A stretch of DNA of 32,000 nt from Pyrodictium delaneyi (GCF_001412615.1 NZ_CP013011.1:1440001-1472000); one strand, 5' to 3'. Positions 8,637 through 29,375 are shown, numbered from the stretch's first letter. Numbers and translations: made by a program. The notes: a model not told the origin generated them from the sequence alone.

Positions 8637-11600
8637 ATGCCGCCAGAGACTAGGCCACGTTGTGGGCCACCGCCTAGCCGTCTCCCGAGCCTGACTGGTA
8701 CTGACGCCCGGCTCCTTGACGAGTACCTGCCGCCGTTGCCTAGTAGGCAGAGGGTCTACCAGCAAGTCGCCGAAGCGCTCAACGAGATGGAGAAGAGCCA
8801 GGACCCGGTGCTAGTGCTCCTCGTGGCCGAGTGGGGCGAGGGGAAGACGAGCATCTACAATGCGCGGGTGAAGCCCTGGCTGGAGGAGAGGGGCTGGAGG
8901 AGCCTAGAAGCCCGCGCTGCCACGGTAATGGCTCATCTCGCCTCGCTGAGGAGCCGTAGCGAGCGCGACCCAGCGTACCGGCTTATGGCCGCGCTGCTCG
9001 CCGCCGGACTCGAGCAGGAGGGCATGCTGGCAGAGCACGGGGCTCCCGATGCTGCTGGGAGCCTCCGGGAATACGTGGATCGTGTCCTCCGCAGCCTCGT
9101 TCCCCGTGGTGGGAAGCTGATAGTCTTCATCGACGAGCTGGAGGACCTCGTGGCCTCGGCCCGGGAGGAGGAGCTAGCAGAGCTAGTCGCCGGGCTCGTT
9201 GGGATACTCAATGGGGACGTCGAGACCGTCTCTGCCCAGTGCCGTGGAGAGGGCTGCATGCCCGGCTCCTTCCATATAGTGGCTAGCCTCACGCCGCCGG
9301 CCTACAGCAGGCTCATGGGTCTCCGCGACTTCGCCACCGTGGCAGCGAGGCTGCGGAGGAGGATACGCAGCGTCTGGATACAGCCACTACCCCGCCGTGA
9401 GGCTTTCGCCTTCCTCGAGAGCCTCGCCCGCTACACGCTCGGCCGGGGGCTCGACGGGCTACTCGAAGACCATAGCCTCGCCCACGCCGTGGTCTCTGGC
9501 ACCCTGGGGAACATGGGGGCGCTCGTCTCGGCGTTCAGGTACCTCGTCTCCTGGGCCCGCGGCCGTGGAGGCTGCGGCGACGGCGTAGCAGTGCTCTCGA
9601 CTGGCGATCTACTCGAGGCATTGCAGGGACTCACTCTGAGCGTTGGGGGCGCCGAGCTGCCAGCCCTCAACAGCGAGGCCTACGCACGGCTAGCCGAGGG
9701 CTGGGGGGCGCGGGCCCGGCTAGCAGGCTTCGACACTGCCGCCGCCCGGAGGCTGCTAGACGAGCTAGTCGCGCGGGGCACTGTCCCTGTCGAGGAGCTG
9801 GCCGTAGCCATTGGGACCCGACTGAGCGTCGTGGCCGAGATGGTGCAAGAGCTCAACGTGTACGGTGAGCAGTCATGGCCGCGCCGGGAGCTAGGCGTAC
9901 AGAGGCTCGTCCATGAGGTCGTGGAGGCTCCAGCAGTCGAAGACGCGTTCAAGCTGCTAAGGGCCGTGGAGCCGGAGGCTGTTAAGCTCCTCCCCCAGCT
10001 GGCTGGAAGGGAGGAGCAGAAGCCGCTAGAGCAGCTACTCGACTCCCTCGTGTACCTCGACTCGGCTGGCCGGCTCGTAGTAGCGGTGCCCGCTGACGAG
10101 CGCATGGCAGCCGACCTAGTGGCGGACGCGTCGCCGCTAGAGCTGAGCCGCGCAGAGGCCGAGAGGCTCGCTGCGCTGCTGTGGGAGGGCATCTTCTCCA
10201 GGTTGCTGGGCTCCGGTGGTGCCCGGGCCTACATGCTCTCGCCGAGGCTCCAGCGTCTACTCTACGTGAGCCCCGAGCTGAGCTACCTAGACTTCATAGC
10301 TGACCGTGTCGAAAGGCTGCAAGTGATACGCCGCGTCTACACCGAGGCAGGCCGAGGCCACCTAGCAGTAGGTGTCTCAGCCCTCCTTGCTGCAGAGGGG
10401 CTGCTGGCAGAGCCGCCAGCACTGCAGGGCGAGGGCGTCGCACGCGCTGAGCTAGTCCTCCAGGGTGGTGCCCGGGCCAGAGTACTCGTCTATGCTGTGC
10501 CGGGCGAGGTAACCGCCGCGGAGGCCCGTAGACTAGAAAGCCAGGTCATGGCTGCACTCATGAGCGGGTGGCGGCCGCACGCGATACTACTAGTACACCA
10601 TGGCGGAGTGGAGCCGCAGGCAAGGCGGCTCCTAGACGCGCTGGAGGGCAAACTCTTCCTAAAGGTGGTAGAGGCCCCGATAGAGTCAATGGTGTCCCGT
10701 GCCCGGCTCCAGGCTCTGGGCGTCAAGCTCGCCGACGAGGCTGGCGGCGTAGAGGAGGCCCTCCGTGCCGCGGTCGAGGCGGCGAGGGACCCGGGGAGGG
10801 CCGAGGAGTTCGGCTTCGACCCGTTGAGGCTCCACTCGCTGCTACGGGAGCTGGCTGAGGAGATACGGCCCCGGGAGAGGCTGGAAAGAGCGCTAGAGGA
10901 GGGCATAGACGGCGCGCCACTAGTGGTGCGGGACCCCCGCCTAGGCTATGACGTGGAGAGGCCTACCGAGCTTAGCGGCGCACTCCGCTACTTCCTCGTA
11001 GTGCCTAGCACCCGTGCATCGGCTCGGGAAGCGCTCCACGCTGCCTACGAATACGTGATGCGGTATCATCTCTACCGGGGCCCCGGCGGCGAGGGCCGGG
11101 GCCTACTAAGCCCGGACATTGACCGCGGCGAGACACAGACCCTGGAGAAGTATATGCTTCTACTAGCCGCCAACGGGTTCCTCGAGAAGAGCAACGGCAC
11201 AGCGAGAATAGACACGTTGAGCCCTATGGAGCGTAGCGTGCTCCGGGCACTGGAGCAGCTCGGCGCCCGTAGCCAAGAGGTCCCCGCATCCAGGGTCTGG
11301 GAGCTGCTGGTAGTGGAAGCACGTAACCCGGGCACTCGGAGGATGCTGCTACAGGCGCTGGCCCACCGCGGCCTCGTGTCCGCTGCCGCCTCGCGGAGGA
11401 TAGACCCGGAGCGCTCCCGGCTAAGGCTACGTGACGGCGAGGAAGCCGCCTGGCAGCTAATACGCGAGGCCCGGGCCATTGTAGAGGAGATCGAGAACGA
11501 CCCCGAGGCAGCCTCCTGGGGCTATGTGGTCTCCGCTAAGGCCCGCGACTACCGCGCCGGCAGCCTAGAGGAGTTCACCCGGAAGATGTACAGCTTGCTA

Positions 11601-13067
11601 GACACAGCCGAGGAGGCCCTAAAGGCTGGCAATACACTGATGGCGCTGAGGCTTGCCCGCACAGTGCTAGACACCGCGGAGTACGTCAGGGACGAGGTCC
11701 TCCGGGGACACGTGAAGCCCGCCGCCGCCGAGGCCAGGAGGTTACGGAGCCTCCTAGAGGACTATGCGGAGAGGATAGAGGAAGCGCGCCGGGCAGCCGA
11801 AAGGATGCTCGAACAGCTGACCGGTAGCCGTGTACAGCTAGAGGTCGAGGGCTTTGAGAGGCTCCAGGAGGCCCTCCACGCGATAGAAGAGATCGAGGAG
11901 TTGCGGCTCAGCGAGAAGCAGCTAGAGGAGGAGGTGCAACAGCTCTGGGAGGAGGCCCGGCGCCGCCACCCCCGCGACCCAGGGCGCCACCTACCATTCT
12001 ACGTCGGTGGCACTGGCCCCGTGCTACACTTCAACTACAAGCTCTGGCTGCTGGCCAAGAGGCTTGAGGAGCTGGGGCTAGCACGGCTAGGCGAGTCTGG
12101 GCTCGAGGAGGGAGAGTGGCTACGCCGCACAATGCAGGCCCTGGAGACGCTGGTCAGCGAGGCCCGGAGGCTGCTAGAAGAGAGTGCTGAGCTACGCCGC
12201 CGCGCTGAGAGGCTAGCCGAGCGGCTGAGGAGGCTCGGCGTAGAGGCCCCCGCGCCGCAGAGCATCGTGCTGCAGGGGCTAAGCGCGCCCGAGAAGCTTG
12301 GCCTCGGCGAGGCCGAGCAGCTGCTCCAGGAGGCCCGGCGCCAGCTAGAGGAGGGGCGGCGCCCGCTACTGGAGCTCGAGGAGCAGGTGGACCGGCTCCT
12401 AGGCGAACTCGAGCAGCTGGAAGAGCTAGCCGCTGAGGCCGAGAGCTGGATACATGGGCTAGAAGAGGCGGCCGAGCGCGCCAGGGCAGCAGGGCTAGCT
12501 GCTAGCCAGAGGCTGCGCGAGGCCCTAGAGGACCTAGCACTGGCACTCGACCAGGCCCAGGCCATGAAGGGCAAGGCCCAGGCAGTGCTACAGCAGCCCG
12601 GCAGACTGCTAGACGCGCTCAGGGATGCCCGCAGCCTTGTCGAGAGCGCGCTCACCCTGCTACGCGACAGTCTAGAGAGGAGCAAGAGGATACACGCGGA
12701 CGCGGTAGCGGAGGCCGAGAGGCAGCGCCAGGCCCTAGAGGCCGAGGCCCAGGCGCTCCGCGAGGCGCTGGAGAGGACCGGGGCAAGGGCGCCACAGCCG
12801 CCACGCAGCAGCGACCCGTTCACCGCTATAGCTGGGCTCCACGAGTACATCGAGAAGCTGCGACGCATGGCGGCTGAGGCGGGGGTACTATCGCAGATGG
12901 AGATGGAGGCCTACCGGGTGGTGGCCCTTGAGCGTAGGAGGCGCGGCGAGCTGCTGCTACGAGAAGCAGCCGAGCTAGTAGCGGAGAGCCTCGGCATAGA
13001 CCTCGAGGAGGCTCGCCGTATACTCATAGCCCTCATCGAGAAGGAGATACTCGAGCCAAGGCTATAG
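8637..13067 (+). CDS. Very large P-loop NTPase (KAP/ORC-like AAA-type N-domain) with winged-helix-like segments and a long C-terminal coiled coil; function unknown
   Basis: Walker A VAEWGEGKTS (nt 8835-8852) and Walker B KLIVFIDELED (nt 9117-9146). An AAA-lid-like segment reads IRSVWIQPLPRREAFAFLESL. HTH-like segments include LLDELVARGTVPVEELAVAIG, SVLRALEQLGARSQEVPAS and the C-terminal LVAESLGIDLEEARRILIALIEK. Residues from about 950 to 1400 are E/R/L/A heptad-rich. Continuous codon-like coding runs over 4.4 kb. The true start could be downstream (in-frame TTG in PPLPS, or the ATG in NEMEKS). Confidence 0.8.
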   Translation: MPPETRPRCGPPPSRLPSLTGTDARLLDEYLPPLPSRQRVYQQVAEALNEMEKSQDPVLVLLVAEWGEGKTSIYNARVKPWLEERGWRSLEARAATVMAHLASLRSRSERDPAYRLMAALLAAGLEQEGMLAEHGAPDAAGSLREYVDRVLRSLVPRGGKLIVFIDELEDLVASAREEELAELVAGLVGILNGDVETVSAQCRGEGCMPGSFHIVASLTPPAYSRLMGLRDFATVAARLRRRIRSVWIQPLPRREAFAFLESLARYTLGRGLDGLLEDHSLAHAVVSGTLGNMGALVSAFRYLVSWARGRGGCGDGVAVLSTGDLLEALQGLTLSVGGAELPALNSEAYARLAEGWGARARLAGFDTAAARRLLDELVARGTVPVEELAVAIGTRLSVVAEMVQELNVYGEQSWPRRELGVQRLVHEVVEAPAVEDAFKLLRAVEPEAVKLLPQLAGREEQKPLEQLLDSLVYLDSAGRLVVAVPADERMAADLVADASPLELSRAEAERLAALLWEGIFSRLLGSGGARAYMLSPRLQRLLYVSPELSYLDFIADRVERLQVIRRVYTEAGRGHLAVGVSALLAAEGLLAEPPALQGEGVARAELVLQGGARARVLVYAVPGEVTAAEARRLESQVMAALMSGWRPHAILLVHHGGVEPQARRLLDALEGKLFLKVVEAPIESMVSRARLQALGVKLADEAGGVEEALRAAVEAARDPGRAEEFGFDPLRLHSLLRELAEEIRPRERLERALEEGIDGAPLVVRDPRLGYDVERPTELSGALRYFLVVPSTRASAREALHAAYEYVMRYHLYRGPGGEGRGLLSPDIDRGETQTLEKYMLLLAANGFLEKSNGTARIDTLSPMERSVLRALEQLGARSQEVPASRVWELLVVEARNPGTRRMLLQALAHRGLVSAAASRRIDPERSRLRLRDGEEAAWQLIREARAIVEEIENDPEAASWGYVVSAKARDYRAGSLEEFTRKMYSLLDTAEEALKAGNTLMALRLARTVLDTAEYVRDEVLRGHVKPAAAEARRLRSLLEDYAERIEEARRAAERMLEQLTGSRVQLEVEGFERLQEALHAIEEIEELRLSEKQLEEEVQQLWEEARRRHPRDPGRHLPFYVGGTGPVLHFNYKLWLLAKRLEELGLARLGESGLEEGEWLRRTMQALETLVSEARRLLEESAELRRRAERLAERLRRLGVEAPAPQSIVLQGLSAPEKLGLGEAEQLLQEARRQLEEGRRPLLELEEQVDRLLGELEQLEELAAEAESWIHGLEEAAERARAAGLAASQRLREALEDLALALDQAQAMKGKAQAVLQQPGRLLDALRDARSLVESALTLLRDSLERSKRIHADAVAEAERQRQALEAEAQALREALERTGARAPQPPRSSDPFTAIAGLHEYIEKLRRMAAEAGVLSQMEMEAYRVVALERRRRGELLLREAAELVAESLGIDLEEARRILIALIEKEILEPRL

Positions 13068-13347: not shown

Positions 13348-14046
13348 TTGCGGGGTAGCCGTAGGCTTGACGAGTATCTGCGTGAGCTCGGCAGCGCTGT
13401 AAGGAACAGACAGGTGGATGTAGAGGCACTCGTGCGACGCATAGTCGAGGAGGCTGTACGGGAGGCCGGCTGCAGCACAGTCGCTTCTCCGGATCCTGGC
13501 CTCCTGGAGAGGCTAGAGCGTATCGAGCAGCGGCTAGAGAATATTGAGAAGAGGCTTGAGCGGCTAGAGCGCCAGGGCAGCGGGGGCTTCTCGAGGAGGG
13601 ATATCGAGGAGCTCGCCCGAGCTATAGCATCCGCCGTAGCTGCTGCCGTCAAGCCCCCAGGAGCCCAGCAGAGCCGGAGAGACGAGCCACGCTGGCTACG
13701 CGCCGTCGTGGAGCGGCTCCGGGGCCGTGGCTATGTTGTTCTCCGCGAGCTTCCGCCGGAGATCCGGGAGGGCTTCGACCCCGAGGATGCCCGGAGACGC
13801 GGCCTAGTAGTAGCCAGTATCGGGGGCGAGACCGTCGTATTCACCAGGCAAGGGCTCCGTGACTTCTTGGAGCGGCTCCGGGGGCTTCGTGCGAGCGACG
13901 AGTATGAGGCAGAGGCTCAGCTGGGCCGGTACAAGCTGCTATTCCGCCTCCTCCGGGAGGAGGGCCTCGTCTACTACGCTGGGCCGGGTCGCGGCTGGGT
14001 GCTCCAAGGCCAGCTAGAGAGACTAGCCCATGAGGAGCTTGTATAG
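13348..14046 (+). CDS. Hypothetical coiled-coil protein (possible partner of the giant NTPase)
   Basis: A 232-aa ORF with no internal Met codon, so it must start at TTG 13348 or GTG 13414. It carries the perfect heptad stretch LLERLERIEQRLENIEKRLERLERQ. The C-terminal half (RGYVVLRELPPEI...VVFTRQGLRDFLERL) looks globular. Confidence 0.55.
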   Translation: MRGSRRLDEYLRELGSAVRNRQVDVEALVRRIVEEAVREAGCSTVASPDPGLLERLERIEQRLENIEKRLERLERQGSGGFSRRDIEELARAIASAVAAAVKPPGAQQSRRDEPRWLRAVVERLRGRGYVVLRELPPEIREGFDPEDARRRGLVVASIGGETVVFTRQGLRDFLERLRGLRASDEYEAEAQLGRYKLLFRLLREEGLVYYAGPGRGWVLQGQLERLAHEELV

Positions 14047-14553
14047 CAGGAGGCCGGCCACCGTCTTCCCGTCCCGTATCTCGCCCCGCCTTATCATCTC
14101 CAGGGCCTCGTCCATGGAGACCCAGAGGGTCTCTATCAGCTCGTCCTCCTCGGGCCTGGCCCCGGCCTCGCGCAGGTCACCAGCCGCGTAGATGTACATC
14201 ACCTCCGTCGAGATCCCAGGGCTAGTATAGAACCTGGCCAGTAGCCGGAGCCAGCCCGGCTCGTAGCCTGTCTCCTCCACCAGCTCCCGGCGCGCTGTCT
14301 CCTCCGGCGACTCTCCCGGCTCAAGGGTGCCGGCGGGTATCTCGTAGAGCCACTCTCCCACACTAGGACGATACTGGCGCTCCAGCAGCACCCTTCCAGA
14401 ACCGTCGACAGCCACTATCGCCACTGCGCCGGGATGACGCAGCGTATCATAGACCTGCCTTCGGCCGCGTATGACCGCCTCTACTTGGCCGAATACAAAG
14501 CGCCTGCCACGGCAAAGCTCGCGAAACCCCAGGATACGCGGCTCTACCTCCAC
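14023..14553 (-). CDS. Nudix hydrolase (ADP-ribose pyrophosphatase-like)
   Basis: The Nudix box GTLEPGESPEETARRELVEETGY matches GX5EX7REUXEEXGU. It has a convergent 24-nt 3' overlap with the previous gene. Confidence 0.9.
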   Translation of the reverse strand: MEVEPRILGFRELCRGRRFVFGQVEAVIRGRRQVYDTLRHPGAVAIVAVDGSGRVLLERQYRPSVGEWLYEIPAGTLEPGESPEETARRELVEETGYEPGWLRLLARFYTSPGISTEVMYIYAAGDLREAGARPEEDELIETLWVSMDEALEMIRRGEIRDGKTVAGLLLYKLLMG

Positions 14554-15041
14554 ACCCAGAACACCCTGGCCCTATCCGCTCCGCAGACTAGATAGAGGTT
14601 AGCACGCTAGCAGGCATTAGCTGCAACATAATCATCACATGCTCCCGCACCGATTATCTAACGACAGGAAGAATAGAATTTTAGGGTGAACGAGCAACTA
14701 ACCCCCGCTCCCAGTGACTAGTTATGTTGCTTCGAATCCCGATTCACAATCCTTGACACCGGGCAGCTAAACGGCCGAAAGCAATAGAGCATGCCAGTAT
14801 CACAAACCCCTCTATGACGCGAGTCAATCCACTGTCCTAGCAATTACTGTGCTGGTTACACTGTCATACCCTACCATTTACAATTCAACTCCCTAAGGCT
14901 AATACGCGGGGACAGGGCAGCATACCAACCCGATGTACTAGCTACACTCTGCTACCTGACACACAAATCTATTTATCATTATTTATAACTTGGATAGCCG
15001 AATGTCGTATATACCTGGAACGCTAAACTATATTGAATACC

Positions 15042-15056
15042 TATATATATATATAT
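15042..15056. repeat. (TA)7.5 microsatellite; also the probable TATA region of the 15100 gene
   Basis: TATATATATATATAT lies 44 nt upstream of GTG 15100. The SD-like GGGGTGAT at 15084-15091 lies between them. Confidence 0.7.
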
Positions 15057-15099
15057 CAACATCATGTATAGTTCACCCGCGCCGGGGTGATACAGCCTG

Positions 15100-16719
15100 G
15101 TGCTCCTACACGGCTCAAAAACTGCAGCAATGCTAACTATAGCACTGATACTAGCCGCGTCATCAACTATGCTTGTAAAGCATTACACTACAGCAACCAT
15201 CTACGAGGATAGGTCTACTATTGTTACGGCAACTCGGCCTCTGATATCGAGAGGCCCACCGGTACTAACGATAGAGGTTAGCGACCAACAAGGAAGACCA
15301 GTAGACTTCTACGCTACGATAAGCATGCCTGCTGCCAACGGCAGTCTCATACACAGTAAGCCAGTGCGCGGTCATGGTCAAGCCACGATAGAGCTAACGA
15401 AGTACGCCGAGGAGCTATCAAGGCTGTTAGACTCGATAAACGCGGCAGGCAAACGGCTCCAAAAGATAGGGATACTAGTACTCCTAACCAGTGTAGAGAT
15501 AGAGAACGGCAAACCAGTAGTAGTCACCGATGCGTTTACCGTACCCATTAGCCTAGACGTGTTGAAGCCAGGCTACCATATAAAGGCAGTACACAAGTTC
15601 ACCCCCAAGGCCAAGACTGAGGCTAAGCAGGCGAAGCCACAGATACAGCTAGCAGCACCAAAACTAGACCTAGCCACGAGCCCCGTAGAGCCCACAGTCA
15701 ACGGACCATGCGTAGACTACGGCTTTAGCGTCACATGCTACTACTGGGAGCTAGACCAGATAGTATACCCTCCAAGCGGCGTAGACAACACCGTAAACAT
15801 GCCCTTCACAATAGTTGATGTAGCCCCAAGCAACGGCATCGACTCGCCAGCACAGAAGACAGAATCTGTGATAGTAAGTAACGTTATACGACTCCAGCTA
15901 TACACTATAGAAGAAGTAGAGATAGGGCTAGTAGTGGACTTCACACTGCTAGGCGGGTCTGTCACGATACCAGGACCAGCATTCGTAGACAGTATAAGAA
16001 ACTATGATACCTCCATCAAGACACTCCTAGACGTACAGTGTACATTCCTGAATACCCTCAACAGCCTGCCTGGGTCAAAGTGCACGCTGAATGGTATCGA
16101 TGCAGCTATCCCCGACTACTATTATGCAGCATACCTGGCTACTGGTGCTGAGGGTAGGCTATGGGTAGCAAAATATAACCTTATAGCTGAGACCTGCGAC
16201 CTGGACGGCATTTGCTACACTGAGAGTATTGGTAGCAACTATGCAGCATACTTTATACCCATCTACAATATCTTCGGGTACTTCGAACCCTACGTGGAGG
16301 TACAGGACGATTACTACAACTATGGTGGCTACCTCTACCGTGTGCTCGACGACTTAAGAAGCAAAATGGAAACAGCCACTATACTGAGCGGATACTATAA
16401 CGATAGACAATTCAACTACTATAGTGTAATCGTTGACGTGAATGGAGAGACGTACATGTCGGTATCTCTCCCCGTAGGCTCCGTAGCGGCTATAGTCTCG
16501 GGACTCAACCTGCCAATGGCTGCTACAACACTCAGCTTTACAGTAACATCTAGCGTGTACTACATTACCGCGTATGAAAGCCTATCGACTGTAACTATAG
16601 ATATAGATACGTCGGTATACCCAGGTATGCAGTATAGCAGTGAAGTCCTGAAGACCGATATGATGGTTGTACCAGATAACGGCGTCTTCACAATCCCGTT
16701 GATGGCCTTAAGACCGTGA
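15100..16719 (+). CDS. Secreted or membrane-anchored hypothetical protein (orphan, Tyr/Asn/Thr-rich)
   Basis: N-terminal hydrophobic anchor AAMLTIALILAASSTMLV. Three closely spaced Cys pairs (CVDYGFSVTC, CTFLNTLNSLPGSKC, CDLDGIC) suggest extracellular disulfides. GC is lower than the flanks. I recognise no family. Confidence 0.65.
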   Translation: MLLHGSKTAAMLTIALILAASSTMLVKHYTTATIYEDRSTIVTATRPLISRGPPVLTIEVSDQQGRPVDFYATISMPAANGSLIHSKPVRGHGQATIELTKYAEELSRLLDSINAAGKRLQKIGILVLLTSVEIENGKPVVVTDAFTVPISLDVLKPGYHIKAVHKFTPKAKTEAKQAKPQIQLAAPKLDLATSPVEPTVNGPCVDYGFSVTCYYWELDQIVYPPSGVDNTVNMPFTIVDVAPSNGIDSPAQKTESVIVSNVIRLQLYTIEEVEIGLVVDFTLLGGSVTIPGPAFVDSIRNYDTSIKTLLDVQCTFLNTLNSLPGSKCTLNGIDAAIPDYYYAAYLATGAEGRLWVAKYNLIAETCDLDGICYTESIGSNYAAYFIPIYNIFGYFEPYVEVQDDYYNYGGYLYRVLDDLRSKMETATILSGYYNDRQFNYYSVIVDVNGETYMSVSLPVGSVAAIVSGLNLPMAATTLSFTVTSSVYYITAYESLSTVTIDIDTSVYPGMQYSSEVLKTDMMVVPDNGVFTIPLMALRP

Positions 16720-16948
16720 CAAGAATAACTTGCTTACACAAAGACATGGCCATCGATGGTACCTAGAACGTAGATGCATACTCTCTTTTTCGCAGCTGTA
16801 TTCCCCGTAAGCCGTTTTGCTTGATGGATAGCTGCCGCGCAGTGAAAGACCGGGCTTATGGCTAGCTAGCCCTATTATCCTGTGCCCATGTTGGAGGACT
16901 GACAAGGATTAATAATATTTAGGCTAATGTGTTAAGCCATTAGTGTGA

Positions 16949-17560
16949 ATGCCTACATGCTCTGAGAGATGTGGCCCCAAGCACCAGCTTAGCGGAGGGT
17001 TGGGTACGATCTTGTCTAGTAGAGTTGTCCTAGTACCGTTCCACCTGGCCAGGCTTGGTAAGAGGATAGTGGGCCTAGACGCGTTCTTCTGGCCAAGCCT
17101 AGAGAAGAGGTACCGGGTAGTTCTCCTAGTACACCCTGCTGAGAGGCTAGGAGAAGCTGCCATAGAAGGCTGTCAACTCCCTGCACAAGTGGATATAGGA
17201 AGTCAAATCGGCGAGATACGGGAAATCGCGCAACGTAAGCCAGAGGGACCTCGGGCACCACGTGCTACTATGCGGCGGAGGTTTGCCTGGTTCCTGTTGC
17301 CACTCAACATGCTCCGCGATATGCTGCGCAGCGAAGCCGAGGAGTTCCAGTTATCGGAGGAGCTGCAAGCTGTGGGCCTTGCCAAGATTCTTAGAGAGTT
17401 GGAGCCTCTCGGGGAGACCCGTTACGCAGTCTTCGAGCCAGTGGAGGAGGATGGCGAGAAGCTGCTCTTACCCGTTGACGATCATATGAGGAGGATATAT
17501 CGGGAGCTAGCACGCCGCGACCAGGGCTATAGAAGGGCAGCAAGCCAGGCAGGATGCTAG
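16949..17560 (+). CDS. Hypothetical protein; only the C-terminal ~97 aa (from ATG 17270) look protein-like
   Basis: MRRRFAWFLLPLNMLRDMLRSEAEEFQLSEELQAVGLAKILRELEPLGETRYAVFEPVEEDGEKLL has ordinary composition. The upstream 107 codons are doubtful. No family recognised. Confidence 0.35.
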   Translation: MPTCSERCGPKHQLSGGLGTILSSRVVLVPFHLARLGKRIVGLDAFFWPSLEKRYRVVLLVHPAERLGEAAIEGCQLPAQVDIGSQIGEIREIAQRKPEGPRAPRATMRRRFAWFLLPLNMLRDMLRSEAEEFQLSEELQAVGLAKILRELEPLGETRYAVFEPVEEDGEKLLLPVDDHMRRIYRELARRDQGYRRAASQAGC

Positions 17561-17580
17561 ACGCATTAGCTTAGGGAGAA

Positions 17581-17685
17581 AGGCGGGTCGGCCAGCAGCC
17601 CCTAGTCGTCATGCCCTGGGGCCCGCAGCCCCCGGGGACCGGCTGCGGAGCCCCTCTGCTTTGCTACATCTCCCCATACCCGCCT
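17581..17685 (+). ncRNA. Candidate structured RNA element or 3' structure (extended GC-rich hairpin, ~105 nt)
   Basis: Nested helices: AGGCGGGT 17581-88 pairs with ACCCGCCT 17678-85; AGCAG 17594-98 pairs with CTGCT 17656-60; GGGGCCCGCAGCC 17618-30 pairs with GGCTGCGG-A-GCCCC 17641-54. It forms a GC-rich patch inside an AT-rich island. Confidence 0.3.
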
Positions 17686-17832
17686 GCCACGGCTAGCACG
17701 TAGTGTGTTGCCGAGGCTATATCTTCTATGCCCGACTGATGGCACCAAACCATTAGGACTCTATTATTGATGGCCTTCTCCTGCGTGCTAACGACGGTCA
17801 CAGCTAATAGTTCTAAGCCTTGAGTAGGCTTC

Positions 17833-17840
17833 CTAAATAT
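17833..17840 (+). promoter_or_regulatory. Candidate TATA box (CTAAATAT) for the GH114-like gene
   Basis: It lies 39 nt upstream of GTG 17879 and 66 nt upstream of ATG 17906. Confidence 0.4.
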
Positions 17841-17878
17841 GCCGCTATCCTTGCCGCACTACCCCTCTGGGTGCTATA

Positions 17879-19028
17879 GTGCGCTATGTTAAAAGACTTA
17901 GAGGCATGAGCGATTTCGCCGTATTCCTCGCCTTGTTAGTGTTGCTCATACTCCTCATCATCCTTGCTTCCCGGGCTAGCCTGCCCTACACCCCTTCTAT
18001 GACTGCCACAGTTACTGTCACCAACACCGCAACATTTGATGAATCTGTAACTAGTACAAGAGCCAATCTGCAGGAGAAAGCTACAACAAAGACGCTAACA
18101 TTTTACAGAGACGCGGACAATGACAGAGACTGTAACAGCTACCGTTACAGTGACAGCCACTATAACGGCTACAAAGATTGCTGCTACTGCCTCCTCCTGG
18201 TGCAGTATCGCTTGCTACTACCTGACAAATATCGAGTCGGAGCCTTTACTGGCCAGGCACTGGACTGTAGCAGTGATAGAGCCAGATGAAGCAAATGACA
18301 CACTGCTAATGGAGGTGAGGAAACGCAGCGACCTGGTTCTCGCCTACCTAAACGCCGGGTATGCCGAGGAGTGGAGGAGCTACTGGGACGTAGTCAAAGA
18401 TAAGCCCTGGATCCACGGCACCACCATGTACGAGGGCGAATACTATGTGGAATATTGGCACACTGAGTGGAGGAAGATACTTGTAGAGTTAGCAACGAGA
18501 TACCTGGCTAGGGGGTTTCAGGGCATCTATCTAGACAACATCGATGCAGCCGAGCTGCTTGCTATAGAGAGACCCTCTTGGGCTCAGGGAGTAGATCCAC
18601 GAGAAGCCATGATAGATCTCGTCTGTAACGTGTCCAATGCCGTCAAAGCCGTAGACCCTAAGGCAAAGGTGTACCTCAATATCGGTGGTGCAGTGAACCT
18701 GCTGTACAATGACCGCCTCCTAGGCTGCATAGATGGGGTGCTACGAGAGGAGCTGTGGAGCCACCCAGGCCCAAGCGGACCCGAGCCACAGGACCCTTGG
18801 GAAACTCTCGCAGCGCTCGACGCGCTAGCCTATGCACACAGCCACGGGAAGACCGTGCTAGTGGCGGATCCCGTGAACGACTTAAAGGAGGCTTGGAGTT
18901 TCTGTGTAAAGGCCTGGAGCCATGGCTTTATTCCAGTTCCGCAGCCAGCCTGGGCTCTTGACTACAGCGCTCCACCTCCACCAGTTTGGTGCAGTTGCAG
19001 CACCTCAATGGTCAAAAGCAACAAGTGA
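17879..19028 (+). pseudogene. Frameshifted gene: signal anchor plus Thr/Val-rich stalk (frame A) joined to a GH114/TM1410-like glycoside-hydrolase TIM-barrel domain (frame B, +1)
   Basis: Frame A (17879..18289) encodes FAVFLALLVLLILLIILA plus TATVTVTNTAT, then degenerates into C/Y/D/R-rich nonsense. Frame B is open from 18099 and continues the stalk (TETVTATVTVTATITATK) into the catalytic domain. The only place to switch is the TTTT run at 18101-18104. Confidence 0.7.
18120..19028 (+). CDS. GH114-like (endo-alpha-1,4-polygalactosaminidase / TM1410-like) hydrolase domain ORF
   Basis: VLAYLNAGYAEEWRSYW, YYVEYWHTEWRKIL and ARGFQGIYLDNIDAAE match my recollection of the GH114 family core (..YlsiGeae.yR.YW.. 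/ ..GfDGvyLDnvD..). There is no signal peptide and no SD before ATG 18120. Confidence 0.7.
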   Translation: MTETVTATVTVTATITATKIAATASSWCSIACYYLTNIESEPLLARHWTVAVIEPDEANDTLLMEVRKRSDLVLAYLNAGYAEEWRSYWDVVKDKPWIHGTTMYEGEYYVEYWHTEWRKILVELATRYLARGFQGIYLDNIDAAELLAIERPSWAQGVDPREAMIDLVCNVSNAVKAVDPKAKVYLNIGGAVNLLYNDRLLGCIDGVLREELWSHPGPSGPEPQDPWETLAALDALAYAHSHGKTVLVADPVNDLKEAWSFCVKAWSHGFIPVPQPAWALDYSAPPPPVWCSCSTSMVKSNK

Positions 19029-19301
19029 GGGTATCATCCGGAGACCATATACCCCGACGCAATATTTATCACTGTTTGATATACTATAGCTAGCTAATTC
19101 GAAACCCTATCTAACTCTAACAAATCCTACTCTAAACGGAATAGAGTTTGTTTTCGCTTTCGCAGGAGCCACGGTGCTTCTTGGCATTTTTGTTTACACG
19201 ACCGTAATACCTCCATACCTTGTACCCTACATAGTTGAGTTGATGTTAAATACTGGACCCCCGGTCCAGGCCCTTCTCCTGCAAGAGGAGGCGAGCAAGC
19301 T

Positions 19302-20438
19302 ATGTGGACTAGCAGGGTAATAGCCATAGCTATAGTTGCTTTCATCGCTATCATAGCTGCCTATATGCTTACAAGCGGAGGGGGAGAACCAGCCTCTACC
19401 GCAACACCTATGACCACCACTATCACAGTCACCAAAACCGCTACGACTACTATGACCACTACCGCGGTCGAGACCACTACAGTGTCAAAGACGGTGACAT
19501 TCACCCAGACTGTGACCCAGACAATACCACAGGTAGAAGAGAAGCTAGTCCTAGTCGATGCGCTAGGCAGAACAGTCGCTGTCGAAAAACCCGCTGAGCG
19601 TGTCGTCGCTCTAGCGCCCTCGATAACCGAGGATATTTGCTCTCTTGGGCTCTGCAGCCGGCTGGTAGGCGTCGACAGCTTCTCCAGGGATGTGCCCGGC
19701 GTCCCCGAGGGCGTCGTGGATGTTGGCGGCTACTGGCAGCCTAGCAGCGAGAAGGTAGCCGAGCTAAAGCCGGACCTAGTACTGGCATGTAGCGGTGTAT
19801 CCGCCCAGGAGCAGATGGCACAGCAGCTCGAGGGGCTCGGTATCCGAGTATTCTTCCTTCGCTGCGACCAGGCCCGGGGCTTCGACGACATCTACTGGGA
19901 TCTACGTGCTATAGCGACACTACTGGGCAAGCCCGAGGCTGCCGATAAGGTGATAGAGCTGATGGAAGAGAGGGTTAGCGCGCTAGAGAAGAAGCTAGCC
20001 AATACTACGAGACCTGGTGTAGCCCTGCTAGTTTACCTCCAGGAGAACGGCGCCTGGGTAGCCGGCGGCGGCACATTCCACGACACAGTGATAGCTGTTG
20101 CTGGCGGCTCTAACGTGTTTCACGGTCTCTACGGCTGGCAGATGGTTGGCTACGAGGAGCTAGTATCCCGGGACCCCGACTACATAATAGTGACCGGTAT
20201 GACTCCTGCTGACTTCAACCGCACGATAGCGCTCGCGGAGAAGACGCCACTACGGGAGACTAAGGCCTTCCAGGAGGGCCATGTATGTGTCCTCTACGGC
20301 GCCGCCACCGACGCGCTTAACAGACCATCACCAGGCGTAGTAGACGCCGCCTATCTGTTGGCCTCGATACTGCACCCCGACCTAGTGGAGCCGCCGGAGA
20401 GGCTAGCCGGCAACTATACTTGTATGCACCAGGGCTAG
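19302..20438 (+). CDS. ABC transporter substrate-binding protein (BtuF/FepB-like, iron-siderophore/cobalamin class), membrane-anchored with a Thr-rich stalk
   Basis: TM anchor VIAIAIVAFIAIIAAYML and stalk TTTITVTKTATTTMTTTAVETTTVSKTVTFTQTVTQT. The binding domain reads RVVALAPSITEDICSLGL...VGVDS...LKPDLVLA. Confidence 0.85.
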   Translation: MWTSRVIAIAIVAFIAIIAAYMLTSGGGEPASTATPMTTTITVTKTATTTMTTTAVETTTVSKTVTFTQTVTQTIPQVEEKLVLVDALGRTVAVEKPAERVVALAPSITEDICSLGLCSRLVGVDSFSRDVPGVPEGVVDVGGYWQPSSEKVAELKPDLVLACSGVSAQEQMAQQLEGLGIRVFFLRCDQARGFDDIYWDLRAIATLLGKPEAADKVIELMEERVSALEKKLANTTRPGVALLVYLQENGAWVAGGGTFHDTVIAVAGGSNVFHGLYGWQMVGYEELVSRDPDYIIVTGMTPADFNRTIALAEKTPLRETKAFQEGHVCVLYGAATDALNRPSPGVVDAAYLLASILHPDLVEPPERLAGNYTCMHQG

Positions 20439-27991: not shown

Positions 27992-28759
27992 GTGTCTGTG
28001 TCTTCGAGCCAACGTGGCCTGGGCCTATGCGTCGAGAGGCGGGAGCGGGGCAGCCTGATGAGTAGGAGACTCGAAGTGGGTGGCCCAGAGAATGTGGCTG
28101 GCAGATGTAACGCTCGGCTGGCGTTATTAGCGGTCCTGTTCTCCGCTATATCAGCTGTCTTGACGGTACTAGAGCTCATGGGTCTCACGGATAATCTGAA
28201 CTACTTGATTTTCCACTCTATTCCTCCACAGGGATCAGTATTCGTTAGGCTATTGTCTCTAACGGCAAGCGTTGCTGCATTCATAGTTTATGCCGCTATA
28301 CTTGTAGTTTACGATATTGCTAAGTTTGGTAAATTGAGGCTACAGACAGTTGCGCTAGGCATATCTTTGGCATCCTCTATGATAGTAGTTGCGGTACTGA
28401 AAGCACTATTACAAGTACCTAGACCTGGGGAACAACCTCTACATTACCCATTTCTACAGGCACTCCTAGTCTCTGATTACTACGCATTTCCTTCAGGCCA
28501 TACTGCAAGAGCGGTAGTGGCTGCATACTATATCGGGAAGAGGCAGAAGCCATACTTTAGAGCGGCTTTATGGATCTGGGCATTCAGTGTAGCAGCAAGC
28601 CGAGTACTGCTGGGTGCGCACTGGGTGAGCGATGTCATAGCTTCAACTGCTATAGGTCTCGCCACGGCACTTATAGTAGACTGTACAGCAAGGTACTGGG
28701 TGCGGGTTTACAATAAGTTTCTGGGAAGAATTAAAGTGTTGAGACTTAGCCTAGACTAG
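27992..28759 (+). CDS. PAP2-family (type 2 phosphatidic acid / polyprenyl-diphosphate) phosphatase, membrane protein
   Basis: The three PAP2 motifs are present: KALLQVPRP, PSGH and SRVLLGAHWVSDV. There are several TM segments. The probable true start is ATG 28058 (MSRRLEV...). GC is lower than average. Confidence 0.8.
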   Translation: MSVSSSQRGLGLCVERRERGSLMSRRLEVGGPENVAGRCNARLALLAVLFSAISAVLTVLELMGLTDNLNYLIFHSIPPQGSVFVRLLSLTASVAAFIVYAAILVVYDIAKFGKLRLQTVALGISLASSMIVVAVLKALLQVPRPGEQPLHYPFLQALLVSDYYAFPSGHTARAVVAAYYIGKRQKPYFRAALWIWAFSVAASRVLLGAHWVSDVIASTAIGLATALIVDCTARYWVRVYNKFLGRIKVLRLSLD

Positions 28760-28970
28760 TTCATGCGCGGATAGTTACGGGTGTAGGCCACACCGACCTG
28801 TTTATCGTTAAAGGCTAGAAAATCGTATAGGATTCACGTTTGCTTGACAACGTAGGAGTTGATATGGTGTTTGTTGTTTGCAAACCTACCGGACTCTATG
28901 CCGGGAGGAACACTAATAATCCTCTCAGGGAAGCTATTTGGTGTAGCTGACGTCTAGAGTACACTAGGCC

Positions 28971-28978
28971 TTTAAAGT
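28971..28978 (+). promoter_or_regulatory. Candidate TATA box (TTTAAAGT) for nuoA
   Basis: It lies 26 nt upstream of ATG 29004, consistent with a leaderless or near-leaderless transcript. Confidence 0.45.
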
Positions 28979-29003
28979 ACGTTGGTAAGAGAGGGGCCAG
29001 TTC

Positions 29004-29375
29004 ATGGCGTACGATGCTATAATAGCTGTTGCAGTCGTACTCACAGTTGTGCCCCTCACTTTGCTGCTTGTTTACGCGTTTCTATCCCGGGTTACCCGAG
29101 GCCCGGATCATGTTTACAAGAGACTCCGTTATGAGGCAGGTAATCCACCACGTGGAGCAGCCCGGATACCTACCATATACCAGTACTTCGGCTACATACT
29201 GATATTCGTCGCCCTCGATCCTGTCTTTATGTTGCTCTTCGTCTTGCCCGCCGCTGCAGGAGGTCAATGGCTCAAGGCAGTACTTTTGAGTATGGCATCA
29301 GTAGCCGCTATACTCCCGCCTATAGTATATGCTGCTAGGTATGCCCGCCGCCGTGAGTACTGGAGTCTTCCATAG
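29004..29375 (+). CDS. nuoA: NADH-quinone oxidoreductase subunit A
   Basis: RYEAGNPPRGAARIPTIYQYFGYILIFVALDPVFMLLFVLP matches the NuoA/ND3 core (YECG....yyl.ailFiiFD). Three TM segments. Confidence 0.85.
   Translation: MAYDAIIAVAVVLTVVPLTLLLVYAFLSRVTRGPDHVYKRLRYEAGNPPRGAARIPTIYQYFGYILIFVALDPVFMLLFVLPAAAGGQWLKAVLLSMASVAAILPPIVYAARYARRREYWSLP

What the first reader, a model, noticed from the sequence alone, without database searches (positions are those of the whole stretch)
14554..19301. AT-rich compositional island carrying orphan surface-protein genes
The flanking genes run at roughly 60-70% GC by hand count of sample lines (for example, line 9001 is about 70%). From 14554 to about 19300 the composition drops sharply: line 14941 is about 37% and line 16141 about 48%.
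The island contains:
- a 546-bp non-coding stretch;
- an orphan 539-aa secreted protein;
- about 1.1 kb with only doubtful ORFs (16720-17878), including a GC-rich structured patch;
- the frameshifted GH114-like gene.
Gene density and codon usage both differ from the rest of the window. This pattern is typical of horizontally acquired or rapidly evolving cell-envelope/exopolysaccharide loci. I found no integrase, tRNA or clear direct repeats at the borders, so a classical integrated element is not supported.
Basis: partly seen in the sequence, partly recalled or inferred. Interest (0 to 1): 0.5.

Follow-up and report, generated by a model that had tools for sequence, protein, structure and literature searches.

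The report
Two variable gene slots, not one island
The AT-richer stretch in this Pyrodictium delaneyi window is a conserved backbone with two swap-prone slots, one holding an uncharacterised cell-surface gene exchanged between species and the other a decaying sugar-hydrolase gene, plus a conserved candidate small RNA nobody has described.

Summary
The GC drop is real inside the window: 14554-19301 is 50.5% GC against 60.3% elsewhere. But the genome averages 53.9%, so the flanks are GC-rich rather than the stretch being strongly AT-rich.

It is not one acquired element. Relatives share a backbone: NUDIX(-), a conserved 182-aa gene (17012-17560), a conserved structured element (17582-17684), then a BtuF/FhuD-like ABC operon. 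Two slots vary between lineages.

- **Slot A** holds the 539-aa gene. It is not an orphan. It belongs to a small Thermoprotei family (PAE1478-like) with an N-terminal anchor, four invariant cysteines and no known fold match.
- Its synonymous divergence contradicts its flanks (pS 0.27/0.31/0.15 against 0.57/0.11/0.58). That indicates exchange between Pyrodictium lineages under purifying selection (dN/dS 0.08).
- **Slot B** holds a GH114-like gene being lost. It is frameshifted at a T4 run here, riddled with indels in a close relative, truncated in P. abyssi and absent elsewhere.

No integrase, tRNA, border repeats, or virus or plasmid links were found.

The "GC-rich patch" is a candidate novel sRNA with compensatory base changes in seven lineages and no Rfam match.

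Overall this is an ordinary kind of locus, a flexible hotspot, with two modestly novel components.

The parts
14023..14553 (-). NUDIX hydrolase gene; left anchor of the conserved backbone
   Evidence: Pfam NUDIX E = 1e-23. It is adjacent to the 182-family gene region in L014, L016 and Pyrofollis L009.
14554..15099 (.). 546-bp AT-rich non-coding spacer (46% GC) holding the divergent NUDIX and 539-aa gene promoter region. There is a TATA-like (TA)n at about 15043-15056 and GGTGAT at 15088-15093, ahead of GTG 15100.
   Evidence: It is homologous but diverged, with many indels, in L004/L005/L006/L010, so it is non-coding. Identity to L010 is only 0.55-0.71, like neutral flanks.
15100..16719 (+). 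Slot A cargo: the 539-aa gene (Pyrde_1457), or 529 aa if translation starts at ATG 15130. It encodes a membrane-anchored, beta-rich extracellular protein of the PAE1478-like Thermoprotei family.
   Evidence: - HMMER found 27 cluster representatives.
- The family alignment is colinear, with an N-terminal hydrophobic helix and invariant C204/C213/C314/C328.
- AF2 with the alignment gave pLDDT 74.9 and pTM 0.78. There is no whole-fold match in PDB or BFVD.
- dN/dS is 0.08 and pS is incongruent with the flanks.
16720..17011 (.). Intergenic spacer (45% GC for 16720-16948) with the presumed promoter of the 182-aa gene
   Evidence: 70-82% identity to relatives, with gaps.
17012..17560 (+). Conserved 182-aa cytoplasmic protein gene (Pyrde_1458); core backbone gene, function unknown
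   Evidence: - There are 12 homologue clusters at 46-91% identity, including Pyrofollis japonicus PYJP_06900. P. abyssi PABY_14250 and P. occultum CF15_04765 are members of two of these clusters.
- The alignment has 35 invariant columns.
- It lies near the SBP-FecCD-ABC operon in five of the six lineages with sequenced context. L015 has no SBP.
17582..17684 (+). Candidate structured small RNA (the 'GC-rich patch'). It has closing helix P1, a 13-bp hairpin P2, and a large internal loop whose 3' strand, GCUUUGCUACAU-UCCYCA, is nearly invariant.
   Evidence: - A covariance model finds it in 7 lineages. In L015 it is on the opposite strand relative to the 182-family gene. In L016 it is separated from that gene.
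- 92.6% of cells are paired against 77% in shuffles (0/500). Nine pairs show double changes. Slid controls give 43-57%.
- There is no Rfam match.
17879..18104 (+). Slot B cargo, 5' part: the N-terminal membrane anchor and Thr-rich linker of the GH114-like gene, ending at the T4 run 18101-18104 where the frame is lost
   Evidence: - ORF 17879-18289.
- L012 has TTT at this site.
- The repaired reading aligns in one HSP with P. abyssi PABY_14260 across the junction.
18105..19028 (+). Slot B cargo, 3' part: the GH114-like catalytic domain in the other frame (annotated ORF 18120-19028, Pyrde_1459, 302 aa, no signal sequence)
   Evidence: Pfam GH114 scores 52.7 bits against a cutoff of 27. TIGR01370 E = 9e-28, below its cutoff. 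All full-length homologues carry an N-terminal hydrophobic segment.
17741..19246 (.). Extent of slot B. This segment is missing from L010/L011, where about 1 kb of decayed amino-acid permease gene lies instead.
   Evidence: blastn breakpoints at 17740/17746 and 19247. tblastn of the L014 permease against L010 slot B gave E = 1e-26 in several frames.
19247..19272 (+). Promoter/operator of the ABC operon: TAAATA followed by the palindrome CTGGACC-ccc-GGTCCAG. It marks the right border of the variable region.
   Evidence: It is 100% identical in L010/L011 although the flanks are diverged. The same TATA-plus-palindrome arrangement is present in L012, L016 and Pyrofollis L009.
19302..20438 (+). Substrate-binding protein (Peripla_BP_2, BtuF/FhuD-like), the first gene of the conserved ABC operon; right anchor of the backbone
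   Evidence: Pfam E = 2e-35, NCBIfam hits, synteny.

Best explanation
The low-GC stretch is a composite, not one element.

**Backbone.** Pyrodictiaceae share this order: NUDIX(-), 182-aa gene, a roughly 100-nt structured element, then the SBP-FecCD-ABC operon. Two positions act as variable slots: slot A between NUDIX and the 182-aa gene, and slot B between the element and the operon promoter.

**Slot A.** In P. delaneyi it carries a PAE1478-family gene for a membrane-anchored extracellular protein. This gene has been exchanged between Pyrodictium lineages, most likely by homologous recombination through the conserved flanks (inferred). It is kept under strong purifying selection. It retains AT-richer codons (GC3 about 0.52-0.55) in every genomic background.

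**Slot B.** It carries a GH114-like secreted glycoside hydrolase gene that is being lost. A 1-nt insertion in a T run separates its membrane anchor from the catalytic domain.

**Causes of the local GC dip** (shown by computation):
1. 30% of the stretch is non-coding DNA.
2. The amino-acid composition of the envelope protein accounts for about half of that gene's deficit.
3. Codon choice in the two accessory genes is AT-shifted.
4. The neighbouring flanks are unusually GC-rich relative to a 53.9% genome.
For: **Identity and conservation**
- The window is P. delaneyi. The five proteins looked up across the stretch and the GH114 ORF are identical in strains Su06 and Hulk.

**Backbone and slots**
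- Pyrofollis L009 has NUDIX, five other genes, the 182-family gene, the element, then SBP.
- L014 (P. occultum-like) has the 1493-aa gene, the 231-aa gene, NUDIX, a 262-aa gene, the 177-aa 182-family gene, the element, an amino-acid permease, then SBP.
- L016 has NUDIX, a 286-bp gap, the 184-aa 182-family gene, a 504-aa gene on the minus strand, the element, then SBP.
- L010/L011 carry the 539-family gene but have permease remnants in place of GH114.
- In P. abyssi the locus tags run PABY_14230 (NUDIX), 14250 (182-family) and 14260 (GH114).

**Exchange of the 539-aa gene**
- For the 539-aa gene, pS is 0.267±0.023 (window-L010), 0.310±0.024 (window-L012) and 0.150±0.019 (L010-L012).
- For four concatenated flank genes, pS is 0.571±0.016, 0.106±0.010 and 0.581±0.016 for the same pairs.
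- dN/dS is 0.08.
- Linkage of this allele to P. abyssi-like flanks is seen directly on contig L010. Cluster listings suggest two further assemblies: contig lengths 6993 and 1799 each recur for a 539-family and a 182-family member.

**Composition**
- GC3 of the 539-family gene is 0.54 in L010, where neighbouring genes are 0.75-0.79.
- The amino-acid-based expectation is 53.4% GC against 48.3% observed.
- Genome GC is 53.88%.

**GH114 decay**.
Against: - Only three lineages have enough sequence for the divergence test, and two of them are metagenome contigs. A chimeric assembly is unlikely but not formally excluded.
- The DNA of P. abyssi and of strain Su06 could not be read, so gene order and the frameshift there are inferred from protein records and locus tags.
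- The mechanism of exchange (recombination against a vector) was not observed.
- The genome-wide GC distribution of P. delaneyi was not available. 'Near the genome mean' rests on one published number.
- The frameshift could be a homopolymer sequencing error. However, the same 302-aa ORF is annotated in two independent assemblies, and relatives show further decay.
Confidence: 0.72

Rival explanations
1. The stretch is a single horizontally acquired genomic island. The whole 14.5-19.3 kb block arrived together from an AT-richer donor, and its mobility genes have since been lost.
For: It has the lowest GC and the lowest tetranucleotide correlation in the window. All three of its genes have GC3 below expectation (z = -7.4, -3.7, -3.7). 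It holds surface-related genes and a pseudogene.
Against: - The middle gene (182 aa) and the adjacent element are conserved in synteny with the ABC operon out to another genus.
- The two cargo genes have different distributions. L010 has the 539-family gene but no GH114. L014, L016 and L009 have neither.
- Divergence differs sharply between the 539-aa gene and the 182-aa gene in the same pair of lineages (dS 0.33 against 0.97).
- No integrase, tRNA or border repeats were found.
Confidence: 0.08
2. There has been no horizontal transfer at all. The locus is vertically inherited, and its composition reflects only amino-acid bias of envelope proteins, relaxed selection on a pseudogene and abundant non-coding DNA. 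The low divergence of the 539-aa gene reflects constraint.
For: - Amino-acid composition alone lowers the expected GC of the 539-aa gene to 53.4%.
- 30% of the stretch is non-coding.
- Ordinary genes such as nuoA show equally low GC3.
- Genome GC is 53.9%.
- Order is conserved within the genus.
Against: - Constraint cannot make the 539-aa gene about three times less diverged than its flanks at synonymous sites in one pair (dS 0.33 against 1.07) and about four times more diverged in another (0.40 against 0.11).
- Observed GC3 (0.526) is far below the value expected from amino-acid content (0.668, z = -7.4).
- The slot contents differ between lineages.
Confidence: 0.12
3. The stretch is a remnant of an integrated archaeal virus or plasmid, and the 539-aa protein is a virion or envelope protein.
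For: - It is a membrane-anchored, cysteine-paired, beta-rich protein with no known fold.
- One family member (P0047, L008) lies 640 bp from a tyrosine recombinase gene.
- The weak top BFVD hit is a phage minor tail protein (E = 7e-5, TM 0.10-0.17).
Against: - There are no hits in PHROGs, GenBank phages, PLSDB plasmids or IMG/VR.
- The structural hits have TM-scores of 0.17 or less and are not meaningful.
- No other virus-like genes are in or beside the slot.
- The recombinase in L008 sits near topoisomerase VI genes and may be the chromosomal XerA (inference).
Confidence: 0.03

Closest known systems
Flexible genomic islets / hypervariable hotspots carrying cell-surface genes between conserved core genes (as described in many bacterial and archaeal populations; from general knowledge)
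   Same: Conserved flanking genes, cargo that differs between lineages, cargo encoding envelope proteins, atypical composition, evidence of allele exchange by recombination, and no dedicated mobility genes.
   Different: Very small: one gene per slot. Two independent slots are separated by a core gene and an RNA-like element. One cargo gene is under strong purifying selection rather than diversifying.
GH114 glycoside hydrolases (Pfam PF03537; endo-alpha-1,4-polygalactosaminidase, PelA/Ega3-type) and the MJ1477/TM1410 family TIGR01370
   Same: The catalytic-domain ORF matches PF03537 above the gathering score. It aligns with archaeal homologues of about 300 aa, sharing motifs such as YLDN(I/V)DA and IDGVLREE(L/V)W.
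   Different: The reading frame is broken between the membrane anchor and the domain, and a Thr-rich linker is inserted. It falls below the TIGR01370 cutoff (97 against 181 bits). Its substrate in a hyperthermophilic archaeon is unknown.
PAE1478 (Pyrobaculum aerophilum) and unnamed hypothetical proteins of Desulfurococcales/Thermoprotei MAGs
   Same: Full-length colinear homology at 24-30% identity, an N-terminal hydrophobic helix, four invariant cysteines, and a hydrophobic segment near residues 450-500 in most members.
   Different: No member has a described function, Pfam family or solved structure. The P. delaneyi protein's C-terminal hydrophobic segment is weaker.
Archaeal small non-coding RNAs (C/D-box and H/ACA guide RNAs, SRP RNA, RNase P RNA; compared from general knowledge and through Rfam)
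   Same: Similar size (about 75-105 nt), GC-rich helices typical of hyperthermophile RNAs, a terminal closing stem, and orientation independent of neighbouring genes.
   Different: There are no C/D boxes, no ACA box after the closing stem and no K-turn signature. No Rfam family matches, even at E of 10 or less.

Membership tests
Classical integrated genomic island / integrative element | Integrase or other recombinase gene inside or at the border | tested here: not met
   Pfam found none among the nine proteins scanned (five inside or adjacent to 14554-19301 plus four flank genes); PHROGs and NCBIfam scans of subsets of these also found none.
Classical integrated genomic island / integrative element | Insertion at a tRNA gene, or flanking direct repeats (att sites) | tested here: not met
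   ARAGORN found no tRNA in the window. Only short, chance-level repeats were found, and none is at the borders.
Classical integrated genomic island / integrative element | Present or absent as one block between close relatives | tested here: not met
   The block is split by a conserved gene and element, and the two cargo genes have different distributions.
Classical integrated genomic island / integrative element | Composition atypical for the host genome | tested here: inconclusive
   It is atypical for the window, but 50.5% is close to the published genome mean of 53.88%. The genome-wide distribution was not available.
GH114 (PF03537) | Domain match above the curated threshold | tested here: met
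   52.7 bits against a gathering score of 27, covering profile positions 17-221 of 231.
GH114 (PF03537) | Intact gene encoding an exported enzyme (signal or anchor joined to the domain, as in the full-length homologues read) | tested here: not met
   The anchor and linker are in frame 2 and the domain is in frame 3, with the break at T4 18101-18104. P. abyssi reads through in one frame.
GH114 (PF03537) | Catalytic acidic residues and polygalactosaminidase activity | not testable with these tools
   Conserved motifs are retained in the alignment by eye. No residue-level mapping to a solved GH114 structure and no assay were done.
PAE1478-like Thermoprotei envelope protein family (unnamed) | Full-length homology with the shared architecture: N-terminal hydrophobic helix and four conserved cysteines | tested here: met
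   phmmer E-values range from 6e-23 to 1e-12 for 15 of the 16 full-length members used. Alignment A1 has invariant C204, C213, C314 and C328. Hydropathy analysis.
Any Rfam RNA family | Covariance-model score at or above the gathering threshold | tested here: not met
   There were 0 hits at gathering threshold for the whole window. Only sub-threshold chance hits were found on 17540-17740.
Structured non-coding RNA (generic) | Conserved secondary structure supported by compensatory changes | tested here: met
   Nine of 20 pairs show double changes. 92.6% of cells are paired against 77% in shuffles (0/500) and 43-57% in slid controls. Caveats: only 7 sequences, and the alignment was fitted to the model.
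Structured non-coding RNA (generic) | Evidence of transcription as a discrete RNA | not testable with these tools
   No transcriptome data were available.

The most novel reading that the evidence does not exclude
Window 17582-17684 encodes a previously undescribed structured small RNA conserved across Pyrodictiaceae (Pyrodictium, Pyrofollis and uncultured relatives). Its invariant 12-nt single-stranded motif, GCUUUGCUACAU, would act as a guide or antisense or protein-binding site. Separately, the neighbouring 539-aa gene represents a new-fold envelope protein family that moves between hyperthermophile species, for example as an adhesin or a virus receptor under population-level selection.
Probability: 0.4. 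Interest if true: 0.55.

Novelty: new member of a known kind. Interest (0 to 1): 0.38.

Why it matters
- A compositional 'island' seen in one window can be an artefact of its unusually GC-rich neighbours. Here it resolves into independent pieces with different histories.
- The clear synonymous-site incongruence is direct evidence of gene flow between Pyrodictium species living above 90 °C, where recombination is little documented.
- The locus also yields concrete targets. One is an uncharacterised, structurally novel envelope protein family of Thermoprotei. Another is a GH114-type hydrolase caught at several stages of loss. The third is a candidate new archaeal sRNA with a sharply conserved motif, testable by RNA-seq or Northern blot.

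Tried and rejected
- **tRNA and Rfam scans**: no hits.
- **Single-sequence AF2 of the 539-aa protein**: unusable, pLDDT 35.6. The alignment-based model was used instead.
- **Foldseek against PDB and BFVD**: no whole-fold match. Only small-domain beta-sandwich matches appeared (a transglutaminase-family fragment and transthyretin). The SlaB hit had probability 0.2 and TM 0.13-0.15, so it was rejected.
- **Pfam, NCBIfam, PHROGs, PADLOC and a PDB sequence search**: run for the 539-aa protein, and all but PHROGs and PADLOC also for the 182-aa family. Nothing found.
- **Phage, plasmid and IMG/VR searches for the 539-aa protein**: nothing. The family alignment was too divergent for a viral-contig scan.
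- **Genome-contig scan with NUDIX**: returned only a distant MAG (L002, with TatA/TatC upstream) and an unrelated bacterium. It did not return P. delaneyi or P. abyssi.
- **P. abyssi DNA**: could not be fetched.
- **Metagenome scan for the RNA motif**: gave one chance hit inside a phage gene (L013).
- **Identities considered for the element and rejected by inspection**: tRNA with intron, H/ACA RNA, C/D RNA and cobalamin riboswitch. It lacks a T-arm, an ACA box and C/D boxes, and there is no Rfam Cobalamin hit.
- **Thermodynamic stability**: z-scores of the element are not significant (-0.5 to -2.7). The case for structure rests on covariation.
- **Bacterial-type promoter/terminator scan**: not informative for an archaeon.
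- **Proteome tables of PMC8105010**: the held text contains none of Pyrde_145x-146x. The file may be incomplete, so this is not counted as evidence.
- **Programmed +1 frameshifting at UUU-U**: considered, but L012 has TTT there and P. abyssi is in frame. A mutational origin is favoured.

Full report
**Source and observation**

An exact look-up of the 539-aa product places the window on Pyrodictium delaneyi strain Hulk, contig NCQP01000003.1. The five proteins looked up across the stretch (232-aa, NUDIX, 539-aa, 182-aa and SBP) are also identical in the complete genome of strain Su06, where three carry the tags Pyrde_1455, 1457 and 1458. The GH114 ORF is likewise identical there, as Pyrde_1459.

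The GC drop is real within the window.
- 14554-19301 is 50.5% GC against 60.3% for the rest.
- It is the lowest-GC 4748-bp window of the 32 kb.
- It has the lowest tetranucleotide-usage correlation with the remainder, 0.786 against 0.81-0.91.
- About 1.4 kb of it (30%) is non-coding.

However, the published genome GC for this strain is 53.88% (PMC5556600). The stretch is therefore only about 3 points below the genome mean, and the 60-69% flanks are the GC-rich part.

Synonymous AT shifts of the same size occur in ordinary genes elsewhere in the window:
- the PAP2 gene at 27992-28759, GC3 z = -8.0;
- nuoA, z = -4.6;
- the 539-aa gene, z = -7.4.

**What the genes are**

*The 539-aa gene (15100-16719; ATG 15130 gives the 529-aa form seen in relatives).*
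- It has no Pfam, NCBIfam, PHROG, PADLOC or PDB sequence match.
- A word-indexed search found only its own 90% cluster.
- A full HMMER scan of 1.84 billion cluster representatives found 27 relatives, mostly 506-577 aa at 24-30% identity.
- These include Pyrobaculum aerophilum PAE1478 and hypothetical proteins of Desulfurococcales and Thermoprotei MAGs.
- The family aligns colinearly. It shares an N-terminal hydrophobic helix and four invariant cysteines, and most members have a hydrophobic segment near residues 450-500.
- AlphaFold2 with this alignment gives a confident beta-rich model (pLDDT 74.9, pTM 0.78).
- Foldseek finds no whole-fold analogue in PDB or BFVD. Only small-domain beta-sandwich matches (a transglutaminase-family fragment and transthyretin) appear.
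- It is therefore a membrane-anchored extracellular protein of an uncharacterised family, not an orphan.

*The 'doubtful ORF' region.*
- It contains a real gene, 17012-17560 (182 aa).
- There are 12 homologue clusters at 46-91% identity and 35 invariant alignment columns.
- Members occur in P. abyssi (PABY_14250), P. occultum (CF15_04765) and Pyrofollis japonicus (PYJP_06900).

- The membrane anchor and Thr-rich linker (from 17879) are in one frame, and the catalytic domain (annotated ORF 18120-19028) is in another.
- Removing one T from the T4 run at 18101-18104 restores a reading that aligns in a single HSP with P. abyssi PABY_14260 across the junction.
- The close relative L012 has TTT at that site.
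- L012 itself carries at least eight further frame-breaking indels.
- PABY_14260 is truncated at 224 aa.
- L010/L011 lack the gene altogether.
- The gene is evidently being lost across the lineage.

**Synteny**

Contexts of homologues show a conserved backbone: NUDIX(-), the 182-aa gene, a conserved element, then the SBP-FecCD-ABC operon.
- **Pyrofollis japonicus (L009):** five unrelated genes lie between NUDIX and the 182-family gene, and nothing lies between the element and SBP.
- **L014 (P. occultum-like):** a 262-aa gene occupies slot A and an intact amino-acid permease occupies slot B. Its left flank matches the window's 1476-aa and 232-aa genes at 81% and 75% identity.
- **L016:** slot A is empty (a 286-bp gap), and a 504-aa gene on the minus strand lies after the 182-family gene.
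- **L010/L011 (P. abyssi-like):** slot A holds the 539-family gene and slot B holds remnants of the permease.
- **L012:** colinear with the window at about 90-95% identity.

Slot B in the window spans 17741-19246. Homology with L010 resumes exactly at a 26-bp block. This block consists of a TATA box and the palindrome CTGGACC-N3-GGTCCAG upstream of SBP. The same arrangement is present in L012, L016 and Pyrofollis.

The stretch is therefore two independent variable slots around a core gene, not one island. No integrase, tRNA or border repeats exist.

**History of the 539-aa gene**

| Pair | pS, four concatenated flank genes | pS, 539-aa gene |
|---|---|---|
| window-L012 | 0.106±0.010 | 0.310±0.024 |
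| window-L010 | 0.571±0.016 | 0.267±0.023 |
| L010-L012 | 0.581±0.016 | 0.150±0.019 |

- The gene is about three times less diverged than its flanks between distant lineages (dS 0.33 against 1.07). It is about four times more diverged than its flanks between close ones (dS 0.40 against 0.11).
- Uniform constraint cannot produce this pattern. Allelic exchange between lineages can.
- dN/dS is about 0.08, so the protein is functional and conserved rather than rapidly evolving.
- High identity begins and ends near the ends of the coding sequence.
- The same allele appears in four metagenome assemblies.
- Its linkage to P. abyssi-like flanks is seen directly on L010. This argues against chimeric assembly.
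- The gene keeps GC3 of 0.52-0.55 in every background, including L010, whose neighbouring genes have GC3 of 0.75-0.79.
- Amino-acid composition explains about half of its GC deficit (expected 53.4%, observed 48.3%). Codon choice explains the rest.

**The GC-rich patch**

Downstream of the 182-aa gene, 17582-17684 is more conserved than the adjacent coding sequence.
- The motif GCTTTGCTACAT-TCC-CA is nearly invariant from Pyrodictium to Pyrofollis.
- A covariance model built from five sequences also recovers the Pyrofollis and L016 copies, at E = 0.006-0.04.
- In L015 the element lies on the opposite strand relative to the 182-family gene. In L016 it is separated from that gene and sits just upstream of SBP. 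It therefore behaves as an independent unit.
- Two helices are supported by compensatory changes. 92.6% of cells are paired against 77% in shuffles (0/500). Nine of 20 pairs show double changes. Slid controls give 43-57%.
- Caveats: there are only seven sequences, the alignment was fitted to the model, and folding-energy z-scores are not significant.
- No Rfam family matches, and C/D, H/ACA, tRNA and riboswitch features are absent by inspection.
- I treat it as a candidate new sRNA.

**Verdict**

There is no classical element, and one component has moved horizontally.
- It is wrong in treating the stretch as one island of orphan, fast-evolving genes.
- The locus is an ordinary kind of thing, a small flexible hotspot with envelope-related cargo.
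- Its modestly novel parts are an unclassified envelope protein family with evidence of inter-species exchange in a hyperthermophile, a staged example of GH114 gene loss, and a candidate undescribed structured RNA.

Noticed in passing
window 17582-17684 (+); L012 2417-2520; L010 2885-2989; L014 6543-6647; L015 1065-973 (-); L009 10601-10676; L016 4479-4559: A conserved structured element (candidate sRNA) with the invariant motif GCUUUGCUACAU and covarying helices. It has no Rfam match, and its orientation and position relative to neighbouring genes vary.
   Followed up: yes
window 19247-19272: A TATA box followed by the palindrome CTGGACC-ccc-GGTCCAG upstream of the SBP-FecCD-ABC operon. It is identical in L010/L011 and recognisable in L012, L016 and Pyrofollis. 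It is probably a repressor operator for the iron- or cobalamin-type transporter.
   Followed up: partly
window 27992-29375: A second low-GC patch (46-52% GC) covers a PAP2 phosphatase gene (GC3 0.46) and nuoA (GC3 0.48). The PAP2 gene is absent between GCV_H and nuoA in Pyrofollis L009, so it may be another inserted gene.
   Followed up: partly
window 8637-13067 (+): A very GC-rich (66.6%, GC3 0.77) 1476-aa ORF with a weak Orc1/Cdc6-like or KAP P-loop N-terminus and a weak SMC-like C-terminal region. It is conserved at 81% identity in L014 together with the 232-aa neighbour. It is the main reason the left flank looks so GC-rich.
   Followed up: partly
L010 2990-4062: In the P. abyssi-like lineage, the slot that holds GH114 in P. 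delaneyi contains a decayed amino-acid permease gene. tblastn hits fall in several frames against the intact L014 permease.
   Followed up: yes
window 15088-15132: The start codon of the 539-aa gene is ambiguous. GTG 15100 is preceded by a GGTGAT Shine-Dalgarno-like motif. Relatives lack that start and begin at the ATG equivalent to 15130, giving a 529-aa product.
   Followed up: partly
window 18098-18107: The frameshift site reads ACA-UUU-U-ACA, which could in principle allow +1 ribosomal slippage on UUU-U. Relatives with TTT or an in-frame reading favour a simple insertion mutation.
   Followed up: partly
L008 842-4158: A distant member of the 539-aa family (P0047, 562 aa) lies 640 bp from a tyrosine recombinase gene, with three small unannotated ORFs between that gene and the topoisomerase VI genes. 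It is unclear whether this is XerA or part of a mobile element.
   Followed up: no
L015 386-4000: In a Crenarchaeota MAG, the 182-family gene and the inverted RNA-like element sit beside an 896-aa multihaem cytochrome gene instead of the ABC transporter.
   Followed up: no
L002 1217-2597: In a more distant Pyrodictiaceae MAG (NUDIX 70% identical), the genes next to the NUDIX start are TatC and TatA, so even the backbone is not conserved family-wide.
   Followed up: no
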